A stretch of DNA of 42,647 bases from Candidatus Uhrbacteria bacterium (GTDB lineage Bacteria > Patescibacteriota > Patescibacteriia > UBA9934), in NCBI GenBank assembly GCA_018664485.1, contig JABJOE010000004.1, forward strand, positions 1 through 42,647. The letters run 5' to 3'. Under the pieces are notes generated by a model. The model ran no database searches. It was not told the origin of the DNA and saw only the letters and a program-made list of their open reading frames with translations. Positions 39,103-42,647 of this stretch are shown piece by piece; the first letter of the stretch is position 1, and each line of letters opens with the position of its first letter. A program made the translations under genes and the position numbers.

Positions 39103-39966
39103 ATGAGAGTTGAAAAAGATAGAAAAAAACCAGAGCGCTCAACGATGCGCGCTCATTCAATGGCTATTCTCGGTGGCCTTGTTTTTATTTTGGGATTAAT
39201 GGTTTGGGTTTGGTATAGCGCGTACGTTCTGCACTCCTATGGCTCTTTCATGCGAACGACTTTGAAAGTCGTACCTCTCCCGGCAGCGTATGTTGTAGAT
39301 GAGGTTGTGTGGATGCGCGATTTGGCTGAACTTGCTTGGCTTGCGGAGACATCAGGATTGAGTGATCCGTATGATCGTGCGTATGAGACGTCGATTCGTC
39401 GTGCTTATATTCGCGGACTAGCAGATGAAGTTGGAGTTAGCGTCGACGATGAAGAATTGGATTCTTTTGTAGATGAAGTAGATGTTGAGATGCTGGAATC
39501 ACTTGGTTGGTCAAAACGTGATTACCAGAGATATTTGGCTAAGCCTCTAATTTTGGAGCAGACACTTGAAGATTCTTTGTATAATCTGACAGAATATCAG
39601 GATGGGGCATATGACGATATTTTGGCTTTGCAGTCTCAGTATGAAGATATTGGTATCGCTTTTCCTGATCTTGCATTGCAGTATTCGCAAGGTGCGAGCG
39701 CTGACGTGAGTGGTTGGCTTGGGTATCTTGAAGAGGACGAGTTACCCGCAGGATATAATGCTGTGTGGGATCTTGATGTAGGAGATACGGTGATTATTGA
39801 GCTTGAGCGCGAATTTGCACTTGTCAGAGTATATGATGTTACTTTCCTTGAGGTGAATAGGTTGAGCGTTGCTATACAGGAGATTTTGGTCAACAAACAG
39901 CCATTAAGTGAGATTCTAGACGATTATATCGGTGAAAATAGCCTATTTATAAGATTAGTAAGGTGA
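39103..39966 (+). CDS. PrsA/SurA-like foldase with degenerate parvulin domain
   Basis: N-terminal TM, PAAYV, ADEVGVSVDDEELD (SurA-N-like), FPDLALQYSQGASADVSGWLGY (PpiC-like). Confidence 0.7.
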   Translation: MRVEKDRKKPERSTMRAHSMAILGGLVFILGLMVWVWYSAYVLHSYGSFMRTTLKVVPLPAAYVVDEVVWMRDLAELAWLAETSGLSDPYDRAYETSIRRAYIRGLADEVGVSVDDEELDSFVDEVDVEMLESLGWSKRDYQRYLAKPLILEQTLEDSLYNLTEYQDGAYDDILALQSQYEDIGIAFPDLALQYSQGASADVSGWLGYLEEDELPAGYNAVWDLDVGDTVIIELEREFALVRVYDVTFLEVNRLSVAIQEILVNKQPLSEILDDYIGENSLFIRLVR

Positions 39967-39998
39967 GTTAGTTTTTAGGGTTCTGTCCCGTAGCTCCA

Positions 39999-40026
39999 CA
40001 AAAACACCAGTTTTCTGGTGTTTTTG
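39999..40026. terminator. Terminator closing the core operon before the cassette region
   Basis: CAAAAACACCAG-tttt-CTGGTGTTTTTG perfect 12-bp stem. Confidence 0.8.
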
Positions 40027-40041
40027 CATTTATACTACCTA

Positions 40042-40334
40042 TTTTCTATTTAACGGAGGGTTTTGACATAAATTACTTCCGAGGACATTCAGGGTTAATA
40101 TCCAGCAAGAATAATCTAATCGCAGAACTTTTGCTGTCTTTTCCCTAAACGTAGGGTTTATTCAATTAAAAGCACCTGAGGCTTGTTAAAGGATTTTCGG
40201 TATAAATAATGAATAACAAAGCCGCCTCCGTTGTATCTGCTTAATAATAACAACGGACGCCCGGTTTTGTCGTTATTTATGACGAATATATTCCTTTGAT
40301 AAACGAAGCGCTTTTTACTTGCAGAAACCCGTAG
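40042..40334 (+). repeat. Arm module 1: arm A1 (40042-40128), arm B1 (40137-40226), hairpin (40227-40257), complementary arm C1 (40258-40334)
   Basis: B1/C1 stems GGGTTT/AAACCC, AAAAGC/GCTTTT, TTGTTAAAGGA/TCCTTTGATAA, ATAAATAATGA/TCGTTATTTAT, ACAAAGCCG/CGGTTTTGT, TCCGTTGT/ACAACGGA. Confidence 0.85.
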
Positions 40335-40339
40335 TCCCC

Positions 40340-40368
40340 TTGACAAAAGAGTGATTTTCTGCTATTCT
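40340..40368 (+). promoter_or_regulatory. Consensus sigma70 promoter, cassette 1
   Basis: TTGACA-17 nt-TATTCT with extended TG; conserved in module 2. Confidence 0.85.
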
Positions 40369-40548
40369 GCGATGTTCGAATGTGGCTGAAAAAGTGCCAA
40401 CGAGCAACAGTTTAAAACCTGGGTAGGATTTAGTTCCTTCCCCAAAACCCCCGGCAGGCATTTGCCGGCCAAAATACGGGATGGCAATTTAGCATCCTAA
40501 ACGATCCGCCCACGGGCACAACCAGCCCCTAGGGCTACCGGAGACGAC

Positions 40549-41436
40549 ATGAACGCAACCCTGAAGACCCTGATCGGCCTGAGCCTGATCGGCCTGAGCC
40601 TGGTGGCCTGTAGCCCCCACGGCGACAATGACGACACCCTCGACACCGGCACCTCCGACGATGATGGTGAGCTGTCGAGCGCCGGCGAGGGCGACGATGG
40701 CGACGACGGTGGCGACACCGACGACACCGACGAGCCCGAGGTCGATGCGGACGGCGACGGCTTCACCGCCGACGAAGACTGCGACGACAGCGATGCTAGC
40801 ACCTACCCCGGCGCCCCCGAGCTCTGTGACGGCCTCGACAACGACTGCGATGACGTGGTCGACGAAGATGCCATCAACGACTCGACCTGGTACCGCGATA
40901 GTGATGGCGATGGGTACGGTGATCCGTCCATCTCGACCAGCGCCTGCGATGTCCCGAGCGGTTTCGTCGGCAACGGCGACGACTGCGACGACACCGACGC
41001 CAGTGCATACGACGACTGCACCAGTACGGACACCTGCACCATCGACATGGAGTGGGAGCCCGAAGGTGGCGCCAAGGACCTTCTCTCGCTCAGCTACGAG
41101 CTGGACTGCGATAGCAGCTACGAGGACTGGGATGCGACCGTCGCGGCCACCTCCAGCAGCTCGATTGCAGGCAGCTTCAGCCGTGAGATGAGCGAGGGCC
41201 AAGTCTGCATGTTGCGGATGAACGCCACGTCTCAGCTCGAGACCGAGAGCTACCGCGTCCGCTACGGCTGCGAGAGCACTTCGGGGTCCGAGTCCGGCGA
41301 CATCAACCAGGGTACCTGGAGTGTGACCGTCGACTGCGGAACGCCCATGGTCCAGACCATCAGCGTCAACAGCAAGGACAGCGGCACCGTCGACGGCTGC
41401 GAGACCGAAGTCATCCCGTTGGTTCTGGCCTTCTAG
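40549..41436 (+). CDS. GC-rich lipoprotein with Asp/Cys putative metal-binding (MopE-related) repeats
   Basis: Lipobox LVAC; DADGDGF...DCDDSDASTYPGAPELCDGLDNDCD and WYRDSDGDGYG; GGAGA SD; codons end mostly in C/G. Confidence 0.88.
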   Translation: MNATLKTLIGLSLIGLSLVACSPHGDNDDTLDTGTSDDDGELSSAGEGDDGDDGGDTDDTDEPEVDADGDGFTADEDCDDSDASTYPGAPELCDGLDNDCDDVVDEDAINDSTWYRDSDGDGYGDPSISTSACDVPSGFVGNGDDCDDTDASAYDDCTSTDTCTIDMEWEPEGGAKDLLSLSYELDCDSSYEDWDATVAATSSSSIAGSFSREMSEGQVCMLRMNATSQLETESYRVRYGCESTSGSESGDINQGTWSVTVDCGTPMVQTISVNSKDSGTVDGCETEVIPLVLAF

Positions 41437-41455
41437 CCTGAGCCTTCTCCCGTGA

Positions 41456-41502
41456 TAGGGGCCCGACAGAGTATGCCTTCTGGCTGCTCGACTGGGTCCC
41501 TA
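41456..41502 (+). terminator. 3' hairpin (possible terminator) after cassette gene 1
   Basis: TAGGGGCCC...GGGTCCCTA closing stem, weak T tail. Confidence 0.45.
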
Positions 41503-41558
41503 CATTTGCATCTAGATTATATTAGCTTCTTTATTCAATGCGCTTTTATGGCGTTTTT

Positions 41559-41851
41559 TGTCTTTTCTATCTAACGTAGGGTTATTTAATAAAAAAGCTT
41601 CAGAGGCTTGTTAAAGGTTATTTGGTAGAAATAATGAGTAACAAAACTGCCTCATTTCCTATCTAACAGAGGGTTTTAGCAAATAAATTGCTTCCGAGGA
41701 CGTTTAGGGCTAGATCCGGCAAGAATAGCCTGATCGCAAAATCGCCTCCGTTGTTACCAAAAAAGATACAACGGATGCCCGGTTTTGCAGGCTATGATGA
41801 CGGATTTGTCCCTAGATACCGCAGGCGCAATTTACTTTATAAAACCCGTAG
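41559..41851 (+). repeat. Arm module 2: arm B2 (41559-41653), arm A2 (41654-41746), hairpin (41747-41775), complementary arm C2 (41776-41851)
   Basis: A2/C2 stems GGGTTTTA/TAAAACCC, TAAATTGC/GCAATTTA, GTTTAGGG/CCCTAGAT, AGATCCG/CGGATTT, ATAGCCTG/CAGGCTAT, GCAAAATCG/CGGTTTTGC, TCCGTTGT/ACAACGGA. Confidence 0.85.
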
Positions 41852-41856
41852 CACCC

Positions 41857-41885
41857 TTGACAAAAGCCTCTTTTTCTGCTATTAT
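41857..41885 (+). promoter_or_regulatory. Consensus sigma70 promoter, cassette 2
   Basis: TTGACA-17 nt-TATTAT with extended TG. Confidence 0.85.
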
Positions 41886-42028
41886 TCGGTGTTCGTTTAA
41901 AAGTGAGGCAACTCACATAATAGACGAAATCATTAATAACACTCCCTAAGAGCGGGCACTTTGCCCATGATTCAGCTTGCTGGATCAACGGGCATTCTGC
42001 CCATTCACTGCGCAACCCTGGAGACCCC

Positions 42029-42647
42029 ATGACGCGCTTCCCGACCCTGACCACCCTTCTGGCCCTTGCGGTCGTCACTCTCAACACTGGCTGCTTCGAC
42101 GACGTCGAGCAGAAGATCTGCAAGGAGTATGACAGCTTCACCGCCGATCAGCAGGTTCTCCTGGACATGGCCGGAGTGGAGTCCGGCGAGTCCGCTTGCA
42201 TCGTCTATCACACCGACACTGAGTGCAACTACGTCTACGTGGTCGGCGAGATCGACGACGGAGGCTGGTACGGCGATAACGCCGACGAGTGCACCGGTGA
42301 GGACGAGCCGGAGGAGCCCACCGACGACGACAGCGACGGCTTCGACTCCGACGAGGACTGCGACGACGACGACGCGACCATCAACCCGGATGCAGAAGAG
42401 GTCTGCGACGGTGTCGACAATGACTGCGATGGCACTGTCGACGGCGAAGACGCCACCGATGCCGAGGTGTTCTACACCGACAGCGACGGCGACGGCTACT
42501 GCAGCACCGAGTTCGAGACGGTTTGTTCCGGAGACGAGGCTTCGACCTCCGTTTCCGAGACCGACTGTGACATCGACGGCGACGGCGACTTCGACGGCGA
42601 CGACGAGGACTGCGACGACGACGACGCAGACATCGATCTGACCTGTG
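42029..42647 (+). CDS. Second GC-rich MopE-related repeat lipoprotein, 3'-truncated by the window edge (absent from the ORF track)
   Basis: Manual translation from ATG 42029: MTRFPTLTTLLALAVVTLNTGCFDD...DDDSDGFDSDEDCDDDDATINPDAEEVCDGVDNDCDG...FYTDSDGDGYC...; GGAGA SD; no stop before the end. Confidence 0.88.
   Translation, partial: MTRFPTLTTLLALAVVTLNTGCFDDVEQKICKEYDSFTADQQVLLDMAGVESGESACIVYHTDTECNYVYVVGEIDDGGWYGDNADECTGEDEPEEPTDDDSDGFDSDEDCDDDDATINPDAEEVCDGVDNDCDGTVDGEDATDAEVFYTDSDGDGYCSTEFETVCSGDEASTSVSETDCDIDGDGDFDGDDEDCDDDDADIDLTC

What the first reader, a model, noticed from the sequence alone, without database searches (positions are those of the whole stretch)
40150..41851. ~185-nt bulged rod with extensive compensatory change and + strand G-U bias directly upstream of each cassette promoter
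Seen: stems at equivalent positions differ between modules yet stay paired: AAAAGC/GCTTTT vs TAAATTGC/GCAATTTA, TTGTTAAAGGA/TCCTTTGATAA vs GTTTAGGG/CCCTAGAT, ATAAATAATGA/TCGTTATTTAT vs ATAGCCTG/CAGGCTAT. Unpaired motifs (GAGG, CGCC/GCCC near the apex, CCCGTAG at the base) are conserved. Several non-Watson-Crick pairs are G-T on the + strand and would be A-C on the - strand. Inference: selection acts on a folded single + strand (RNA or ssDNA), not on a double-stranded operator. The rod lies upstream of the -35, so it is not in the cassette mRNA. It may be a separate ncRNA or an ssDNA recognition site.
Basis: partly seen in the sequence, partly recalled or inferred. Interest (0 to 1): 0.8.

Follow-up and report, generated by a model that had tools for sequence, protein, structure and literature searches.

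The report
Dispersed palindromic hairpin repeat, REP-like
The two 190-base hairpin-forming stretches are copies of a repeat scattered between genes in this tiny bacterium and some relatives, much like the palindromic repeats known from other bacteria, and are not a part special to the gene cassettes.

Summary
The rods are real: window 40149-40339 and 41666-41856 fold far better than shuffles on both strands, and their stems differ yet stay paired. They are not specific to the cassettes. The same 0.98 Mb genome holds 7 full copies plus a right-arm remnant. Others lie upstream of the RNase P RNA, rpsL, ftsZ and ftsH promoters.

The same-genus genome G001 has three of these promoters without a rod. 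A covariance model finds 1-13 copies in 7 of 60 same-family genomes, in every kind of intergenic setting. In 19 of these copies, 42 of 54 pairs show double changes.

The claimed + strand G-T bias does not hold: 28 against 23 in this genome and 68 against 51 in relatives. There is no Rfam match.

Best reading: a new REP/BIME/REPIN- or ERIC-like family of non-coding palindromic repeats in a probably CPR lineage. In relatives, 23 of 25 copies share one orientation against GC skew, and Y1 (RAYT-like) transposase genes are present. This hints at a single-stranded DNA stage. This genome has no such gene, and its copies sit just upstream of -35 boxes, which is unexplained.

The parts
39999..40026 (+). 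Intrinsic terminator of the upstream PpiC-like gene (39103-39966). It marks the left limit of the free intergenic space.
   Evidence: 12-bp stem followed by a T run; for the gene.
40041..40127 (+). Orphan left arm of the X subtype, with no partner arm nearby. It is about 79% identical to the left arm of rod 2.
   Evidence: repeat families D10, D14, D16; blastn, 79% over 97 nt; nhmmer, 40050-40128, profile positions 11-90.
40149..40339 (+). Rod 1 (Y subtype), a 191-nt bulged hairpin with the conserved apex CCTCCGTTGT..ACAACGGACGCCCGG.
   Evidence: folds, z -5.3 on + and -3.7 on -; covariance model, 160.2 bits.
40340..40368 (+). Promoter 1, TTGACA-17-TATTCT with TG before the -10. It is the standard strong promoter type of this lineage.
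   Evidence: 10 of 12 matches; 74 such promoters in the genome; same consensus in relatives.
40549..41436 (+). ORF of 64% GC, a predicted lipoprotein (signal ..LSLVAC read from the DNA) with a MopE-type Cys-rich motif. It is a neighbour of the rod, not part of the repeat.
   Evidence: PF11617, E 7.9e-12.
41540..41554 (+). Short terminator-like hairpin with a T run, downstream of ORF 1.
41562..41653 (+). Orphan left arm of the Y subtype, about 81% identical to the left arm of rod 1.
   Evidence: D8, D10; (41571-41653, profile positions 11-96).
41666..41856 (+). Rod 2 (X subtype, the commoner subtype in this genome), a 191-nt bulged hairpin.
   Evidence: z -6.3 on + and -4.5 on -; 186.5 bits.
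41857..41885 (+). Promoter 2, TTGACA-17-TATTAT with TG before the -10.
   Evidence: 11 of 12 matches.
42029..42646 (+). Second high-GC lipoprotein ORF (lipobox ..LNTGC read from the DNA) with a MopE motif. It runs off the contig into a tandem repeat of about 333 nt.
   Evidence: PF11617, E 2.2e-10; table 5c.

Best explanation
The rod is one copy of a lineage-restricted family of non-coding, hairpin-forming intergenic repeats. It is the same kind of thing as REP/BIME/REPIN, ERIC or Correia elements.

Shown. It is dispersed, with 7 full copies and fragments in this 0.98 Mb genome and 1-13 copies in 7 of 60 genomes of the same family. It is present or absent at orthologous sites. It occupies only intergenic DNA. 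The hairpin is kept by paired changes, while a few internal-loop motifs stay constant (left CCGAGCACG, right ACAGCGCAGG). Copies recombine with each other.

Inferred. Copies spread, or once spread, through a single-stranded DNA hairpin stage, probably handled in trans by the Y1 (HUH, RAYT-like) transposases that relatives encode. This is inferred because in relatives nearly all copies lie in one orientation relative to GC skew. This genome has no such gene, so its copies are probably immobile, diverged survivors (72-83% identity between copies).

The orphan left arms are half-elements, comparable to REP singlets beside REPINs. They were probably left by recombination between copies at the conserved apex, or by nested insertion followed by deletion. 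Why 6 of 8 copies here end 4-5 nt before a -35 box, always facing the gene, is unexplained. It could reflect target choice at TTGAC, or survival only where the promoter-proximal arm is useful.
For: Dispersal. nhmmer and the covariance model find copies at C2 (two, in the window), C6, C7 (three) and C10. They also find a right-arm remnant on C1 and two orphan arms.

Downstream genes. These are RNase P RNA (RF00010, 161.8 bits), ftsH, rpsL and ftsZ, and three high-GC lipoprotein genes.

Presence or absence. Same-genus G001 has the orthologous rnpB, rpsL and ftsZ promoters with no rod. G001 has its single rod at a site where this genome has only about 100 nt of intergenic DNA.

Range. 7 of 60 same-family genomes and 5 of 15 genera including this genome's own. 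There was no match in 185,579 species genomes to two apex patterns. Of 5 metagenome matches, 2 were this same organism and 3 were unrelated.

Settings in relatives. Co-directional, convergent, antisense and divergent gaps all occur.

Structure kept. 23 of 54 pairs covary in 7 copies and 42 of 54 in 19 further copies, with 0 of 500 shuffles reaching this.

Mosaic and recombinant copies in G004.

Orientation. The rod's top strand lies on the GC-skew-negative strand in 11 of 12 copies on G004 contig 1 and in 12 of 13 other copies. Where gene direction and skew disagree (L127, L129, L119), orientation follows skew.

Transposase. Y1_Tnp genes occur in 45 of 60 relatives, including all 7 that carry rods. 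One G004 protein reaches the NCBIfam REP-associated tyrosine transposase cut-off (92.8 against 80 bits).

Prior description of the kind. Hairpins with common compensatory changes, singlets and clusters are described for REPINs (PMC3116915, passages read). Y1 enzymes act on ssDNA at the lagging-strand template (PMC6006769, passages read).
Against: No transposase partner is shown. This genome has no Y1_Tnp and no TnpB-type domain. The Y1 genes of relatives are not next to rods (coordinates), and their flanks hold no rod. Y1 genes are also common in relatives without rods (38 of 53), so co-occurrence carries no information.

No target-site duplication or sharp left end could be defined. No excision or insertion joint at a rod appears in contigs of 4 DNA runs (contigs drop rare variants).

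In this genome the orientation against GC skew is 4 of 8, while the orientation towards the downstream promoter is 7 of 7. Spacing to the -35 is 4-5 nt in 6 copies. That fits a promoter-linked role better than random decay.

The canonical 5' GT[AG]G guide is seen only in the three Y-type left arms. Copy number is low and the element is 2-3 times longer than REPINs. Copies diverged by 17-28% have survived in a very compact genome, which may mean they are useful.
Confidence: 0.7

Rival explanations
1. The rod is a promoter-upstream module, or has been co-opted as one in this genome. As a DNA cruciform or protein-binding hairpin just upstream of the -35, it would boost, insulate or regulate strong promoters of essential genes.
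For: In this genome 7 of 8 copies or remnants lie directly upstream of a promoter and face the gene. Six end 4-5 nt before TTGAC, whatever the replication direction. The C1 remnant keeps only the promoter-proximal right arm. The copies have survived 17-28% divergence in a compact genome.
Against: The orthologous rnpB, rpsL and ftsZ promoters of G001 work without a rod. Only about 6 of the 74 strong promoters of this genome have one. The C10 copy has no promoter. Only 4 of 19 copies in relatives have any promoter-like site within 200 nt downstream, and many lie in convergent or antisense gaps. No regulator is known.
Confidence: 0.15
2. The rod is a gene for a structured non-coding RNA, or an RNA element in 3' UTRs acting as a stabiliser or terminator.
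For: There is strong covariation with conserved internal loops. The model matches only one orientation in relatives at E <= 1e-4. Most copies lie just downstream of a gene end. REP elements are reported to stabilise mRNA and to terminate transcription (PMC6006769 background).
Against: There is no promoter in front of the rods, and terminators of the upstream genes precede them (sequences). There is no Rfam match on either strand. There is no G-U strand bias. Orientation with respect to neighbouring genes varies in relatives. Copy number ranges from 0 to 13 among close relatives.
Confidence: 0.08
3. The rods are integron-attC-like recombination sites that capture high-GC gene cassettes as folded single strands.
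For: 4 of 8 copies in this genome touch a high-GC gene, although only 3% of 600-nt windows reach 56% GC. The two window modules are in tandem. The rods are bulged hairpins.
Against: Rods also precede rnpB, rpsL, ftsZ and ftsH. There is no enrichment next to high-GC DNA in G004 (2 of 12, null mean 1.2, P 0.34). The cassettes carry their own standard promoter. The only tyrosine recombinase gene is on another contig. The high-GC gene upstream of rnpB is at the same place in G001 without a rod. No cassette-sized joints appear at rods in 4 DNA runs.
Confidence: 0.03

Closest known systems
REP / BIME / REPIN elements with RAYT (TnpA-REP) Y1 transposases
   Same: Both are extragenic, repeated and palindromic, and fold as a hairpin with frequent compensatory changes. 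Both show singlets (half-elements) and clusters beside full hairpins, and mosaics with other motifs as in BIMEs. Y1 transposase genes are present in the lineage. (PMC3116915 and PMC6006769, passages read.)
   Different: The rod is 125-210 nt, against REPs of 21-65 nt. Copy number is 1-13 per genome rather than hundreds. The 5' GT[AG]G guide is seen only in one subtype. No Y1 gene is flanked by the repeat, there is none at all in this genome, and Y1 genes are multi-copy in relatives rather than single-copy.
ERIC (enterobacterial repetitive intergenic consensus) and Correia elements of Neisseria (recalled, not checked in a call)
   Same: These are imperfect palindromes of 100-160 bp in intergenic DNA with no coding capacity. 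Correia elements are known to lie beside or create promoters.
   Different: There is no sequence relation. The rod is paired along its whole length, whereas Correia elements pair only at terminal inverted repeats. No TA or other target duplication was found here.
IS200/IS605 family ends (ssDNA transposition at the lagging-strand template)
   Same: Hairpin recognition and an orientation bias with respect to replication direction (23 of 25 copies in relatives).
   Different: Those elements have two short subterminal hairpins around a transposase gene and a defined 4-5 nt target at the left end. Here there is one long hairpin, no gene, and no bias in this genome (4 of 8).
Integron attC sites
   Same: Bulged imperfect hairpins between genes that act as folded single strands.
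   Different: attC sites are 57-141 nt (recalled), lie 3' of promoterless cassettes and next to an intI/attI platform. Here the genes have their own promoters, housekeeping genes are also flanked, and no integrase is nearby.

Membership tests
REP/REPIN-RAYT system | Repeated, extragenic, palindromic sequence that forms a hairpin | tested here: met
   7 copies plus fragments in this genome. Copies occur in 7 of 60 relatives. All are intergenic.
REP/REPIN-RAYT system | Compensatory changes keep the hairpin | tested here: met
   23 of 54 pairs. 42 of 54 pairs with 0 of 500 shuffles reaching this (alignment fitted to the model).
REP/REPIN-RAYT system | GT[AG]G guide tetranucleotide 0-2 nt 5' of the hairpin foot (PMC6006769) | tested here: inconclusive
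   ACGTAG|GGTTT is present in rod 1, the C6 copy and the Y orphan. The X-type copies have CAGAG, GCGGAG, ACGAAG or GCGAAG instead. It is absent from the G004 copies.
REP/REPIN-RAYT system | A cognate RAYT gene flanked by the repeat | tested here: not met
   There is no Y1_Tnp in this genome. In relatives the Y1 genes are on other contigs or at least 27 kb from rods. Four Y1 loci hold no rod (best E 0.11) and no long inverted repeat of that kind.
REP/REPIN-RAYT system | Short unit (REP 21-65 nt) and high copy number | tested here: not met
   Rods are 124-211 nt, with 1-13 copies per genome.
MITE (non-autonomous derivative of a DDE insertion sequence) | Terminal inverted repeats plus target-site duplication and a related autonomous IS | tested here: not met
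   No duplication or sharp left end was found when filled and empty sites were compared. There is no multi-copy coding repeat in this genome. DDE_Tnp_1 and IS110 domains are absent from 5 rod-bearing relatives. These two families were not searched in this genome itself.
ssDNA (HUH/Y1) mobile elements | Orientation tied to the direction of replication | tested here: inconclusive
   Relatives show 11 of 12 and 12 of 13 (four of these have |skew| below 0.05). This genome shows 4 of 8. Reading GC skew as replication direction is established knowledge and was not tested here.
Integron attC / cassette array | Sites bound promoterless cassettes beside an integrase | tested here: not met
   The cassettes have their own promoters. 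Rods lie at rnpB, rpsL, ftsZ and ftsH. The single Phage_integrase-domain gene is on contig C5; whether it is an IntI was not tested.
Any described RNA family (Rfam 15, including 6S RNA) | Match to a curated covariance model | tested here: not met
   Nothing overlaps a rod at E <= 10 in window 39800-42647. Nothing at E <= 0.1 in six loci of relatives.

The most novel reading that the evidence does not exclude
The rods are hairpin ssDNA transposons of CPR bacteria, moved in trans by HYH-type Y1 transposases and inserted in one orientation at replication forks. In this species the transposase was lost, and the surviving copies are those taken over as upstream modules of strong promoters of essential genes (RNase P RNA, rpsL, ftsZ, ftsH) and surface lipoproteins. 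Alternatively, the element's target was the complement of the -35 box TTGAC, making it a promoter-seeking element.
Probability: 0.15. Interest if true: 0.6.

Novelty: new member of a known kind. Interest (0 to 1): 0.35.

Why it matters
Ultra-small CPR genomes are thought to carry very little repeated or selfish DNA. A family of 125-210 nt structured repeats would give this poorly known group its own REP-like system. Its notable features are a mosaic, BIME-like build in some genera, a replication-linked orientation, and tight placement before strong promoters in one species. It is also a practical marker for strain typing and for assembly breaks.

For the scan, the main value is corrective. The compensatory changes are real, but they belong to a dispersed palindromic repeat. 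They do not indicate a cassette-specific RNA or operator.

No description of REP, REPIN or RAYT systems in Patescibacteria turned up in the four full-text searches (listings only were read for these).

Tried and rejected
- Rfam scans gave no match on the rods, in the window or in relatives.
- TIGR-Tas guide arrays surfaced in a literature search (passages of PMC12045711 read). They were rejected because their units are 36-nt RNAs with box C/D motifs and variable spacers in the loops, whereas here the loops are conserved and the stems vary. No Tas gene was looked for.
- blastn of rod 1 against 40 relatives matched only the shared promoter consensus. The covariance model was needed to find relatives' copies.
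- Exact apex patterns found nothing in the species genome collection. In metagenome contigs they found only this organism's own loci plus 3 unrelated matches.
- RNA evidence: no RNA holder is listed among 20 runs.
- Contigs of 4 DNA runs cover the locus with 0 differences in long pieces. They show joints only inside the repetitive MopE-coding DNA, at low likeness, probably from other organisms. No joint lies at a rod.
- Association of rods with high-GC genes: 4 of 8 here but 2 of 12 in G004. Dropped as a general rule.
- Replication-linked orientation in this genome: 4 of 8.
- Y1 transposase as a marker of rod-bearing genomes: 7 of 7 against 38 of 53, so not discriminating.
- A mobile-promoter idea, in which the rod carries its own -35: the rpsL promoter, including its -35 and spacer, is orthologous in G001, so at least there the promoter was not brought by the rod.
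- A fold-back or template-switch model for the orphan arms, and a possible rod relic at C7:48070-48095, remain speculation.
Full report
**What is in the window.** The window is a whole 42.6 kb contig of a 0.98 Mb, 45% GC genome in 10 contigs. A Mur ligase from it has its nearest Atlas clusters in CPR/Patescibacteria phyla (a weak pointer). DNA runs that hold the locus are labelled marine or seawater metagenomes.

The last 2.6 kb differs from the rest. Two ORFs of 62-66% GC (40549-41436, and 42029 to the contig end) are each preceded by about 500 nt of 40% GC DNA. Both ORFs carry a MopE-type motif, and read from the DNA both start with lipoprotein signals.

Each low-GC stretch holds, in order:
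- a terminator of the gene before it;
- an unpaired "orphan" left arm;
- a 191-nt hairpin (40149-40339 and 41666-41856);
- 5 nt later, a near-consensus promoter (40340-40368 and 41857-41885).

The two rods are in fact two subtypes, X and Y. Each upstream region carries a complete rod of one subtype preceded by a lone left arm of the other.

**The rod is not a cassette feature.** Profile and covariance-model searches of the genome find 7 full or near-full copies, one right-arm remnant and the two orphans.

| Copy | What follows it |
|---|---|
| C6 | Promoter whose transcript is RNase P RNA (RF00010, 161.8 bits) |
| C7, three copies | ftsH, rpsL and ftsZ |
| C1 remnant | Another high-GC lipoprotein gene |
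| C10 | None; it lies in a convergent gap with no promoter |

The promoter after the rods is simply the standard strong promoter of the lineage. 74 sites in this genome fit TTGAC[AG]-N13-15-TGnTAnnnT, and relatives share the consensus.

**Presence and absence.** In the one other species of the genus (G001), the orthologous rnpB, rpsL and ftsZ promoters are recognisable but carry no rod. About 200-300 nt are simply missing between terminator and promoter. Conversely, G001 has its single rod after a gene whose orthologue here is followed by only about 100 nt. So rods are gained or lost site by site.

**Wider family.** blastn saw nothing beyond the promoter in relatives. Exact apex patterns found nothing in the species genome collection.

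A covariance model built from the 7 copies found copies in 7 of 60 same-family genomes. Counting this genome's own genus, that is 5 of 15 genera. Copy numbers were G001 1, G004 13, G005 4, G011 2, G015 2, G019 2 and G042 1.

The interior sequences differ by lineage, but the hairpin and a few loop motifs persist. In 19 such copies, which played no part in building the model, the results were:
- 95.4% of 811 cells pair;
- 42 of 54 pairs have changes on both sides;
- 0 of 500 shuffles reach this;
- slid controls pair only 26-40%.

The alignment was fitted to the model, which favours the structure.

In relatives the rods sit in all kinds of intergenic gaps, and only 4 of 19 have a promoter-like site within 200 nt downstream. 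In G004 the rod is one module of a mosaic. The other modules are a terminator-like hairpin, a short left module and two or three further hairpins. One copy combines the left base of one variant with the right base of another, which is a recombinant.

**Strand question.** A strand-symmetric arm alignment gives the following G.T on + against A.C on +:
- 5:3 and 6:3 for the window rods;
- 28:23 for this genome;
- 68:51 for relatives.

The + strand is the more stable in 4 of 7 copies here and 10 of 15 in relatives. This is no more than a faint trend. Counts made on a structure predicted from the + strand (32:14) are biased by construction, and I do not use them.

**A different strand signal.** The orientation of the whole element does carry a signal. 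On G004 contig 1, cumulative GC skew turns at about 230 kb and 650 kb, and 11 of 12 rods have their top strand on the skew-negative strand. With 4-20 kb of context, 12 of 13 further copies in G001, G004, G005, G011, G015, G019 and G042 do the same. G001 is the exception, and four of the loci have |skew| below 0.05. Where gene direction and skew disagree, orientation follows skew.

23 of 25 is far from even (two-sided binomial about 2e-5, computed by hand). Reading skew as replication direction is established knowledge and was not tested here. Such a bias is the hallmark of elements that move as single strands at the fork (PMC6006769, passages read).

In this genome the figure is 4 of 8.

**Candidate enzyme.** Y1_Tnp domains occur in 45 of 60 relatives, at 1-9 per genome, including all 7 with rods. 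One G004 protein passes the NCBIfam cut-off for REP-associated tyrosine transposase, at 92.8 against 80 bits. A G001 protein does not, at 32.2 bits.

The link is weak for four reasons:
- rod-less relatives also have these genes (38 of 53);
- the genes are not near rods;
- their flanks hold no rod;
- this genome has none, even as a remnant.

This genome also lacks TnpB-type domains and multi-copy coding repeats, and it has one tyrosine recombinase gene, on C5.

**What remains odd.** In this genome, 7 of 8 copies or remnants face a promoter. Six end 4-5 nt before TTGAC: CCCGTAG-N4-5-TTGAC, with minor variants. The C10 copy is followed directly by TTGAT, and the ftsZ copy by a stretch of about 25 nt before a weak -35. 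The rpsL promoter, including its -35 and spacer, is orthologous in G001, so the rod did not bring it.

Three explanations are possible: target choice at TTGAC, trimming of spacer DNA in a compact genome, or retention only where the promoter-proximal arm is useful. I cannot tell them apart.

Four of 8 copies touch high-GC genes here, but only 2 of 12 do in G004, so I do not read the rods as cassette sites.

**Verdict.** This is a real, well-conserved hairpin. It is a copy of a dispersed palindromic intergenic repeat family, closest in kind to REP/BIME/REPIN and ERIC elements, and new as a family. Its means of spread is unproven.

It fails two defining REPIN tests, a flanked RAYT gene and unit size with high copy number, and is inconclusive on the GTAG guide. 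I therefore file it as working like these elements rather than as a member. Searches of the paper library for REP, REPIN or RAYT together with Patescibacteria gave nothing relevant (listings only).

Noticed in passing
window 40401-41501 and 42001-42647; also about 50 islands across the genome (for example C1 9.6-14.2 kb, C10 8.8-18.2 kb): Short islands of 58-70% GC lie in a 45% GC genome. Several encode lipoproteins with MopE-type Cys-rich motifs. One such gene sits upstream of rnpB in both this genome and G001, so they are not recent arrivals.
   Followed up: partly
window 42322-42647: The contig ends inside a tandem repeat. In three runs a 326-nt contig closes on itself with 7 extra letters, giving a period of about 333 nt (table 5c). 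This probably explains the assembly break.
   Followed up: no
whole genome, for example window 40340-40368: The promoter consensus is unusually uniform. 74 sites fit TTGAC[AG]-N13-15-TGnTAnnnT, often as TTGACAAAAG..TTTTnTGCTATTAT. Relatives share it, and many have a TTAGCCAA-like motif further upstream.
   Followed up: no
relatives G001-G076 (for example L077 1315-2097 minus strand, L078 1288-1917 minus strand): Y1 (HUH, here HYH) transposase-like genes of about 200-300 aa occur at 1-9 copies in 45 of 60 genomes of about 1 Mb in this family. There are none in the window's genome.
   Followed up: partly
G004 loci L072-L076, L129, L117: Copies have a BIME-like mosaic build: a terminator-like hairpin, the rod, the hairpin CCCCATTTCTTTG..CAAAGAAATGGGG, and the hairpin GGGGCAGGATGCCCC. 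Some copies are near-identical and one is a recombinant.
   Followed up: partly
G000 C7:48070-48095: AAATCGTAGGGGCTAGATCC resembles the foot and an inner piece of the rod's left arm. It lies at the site where G001 has a full rod, so it may be a deletion relic or may be chance.
   Followed up: no
L001 2057-2513 (G000 C6:147556-148012): The RNase P RNA is 457 nt against a 367-position model, so it carries insertions.
   Followed up: no
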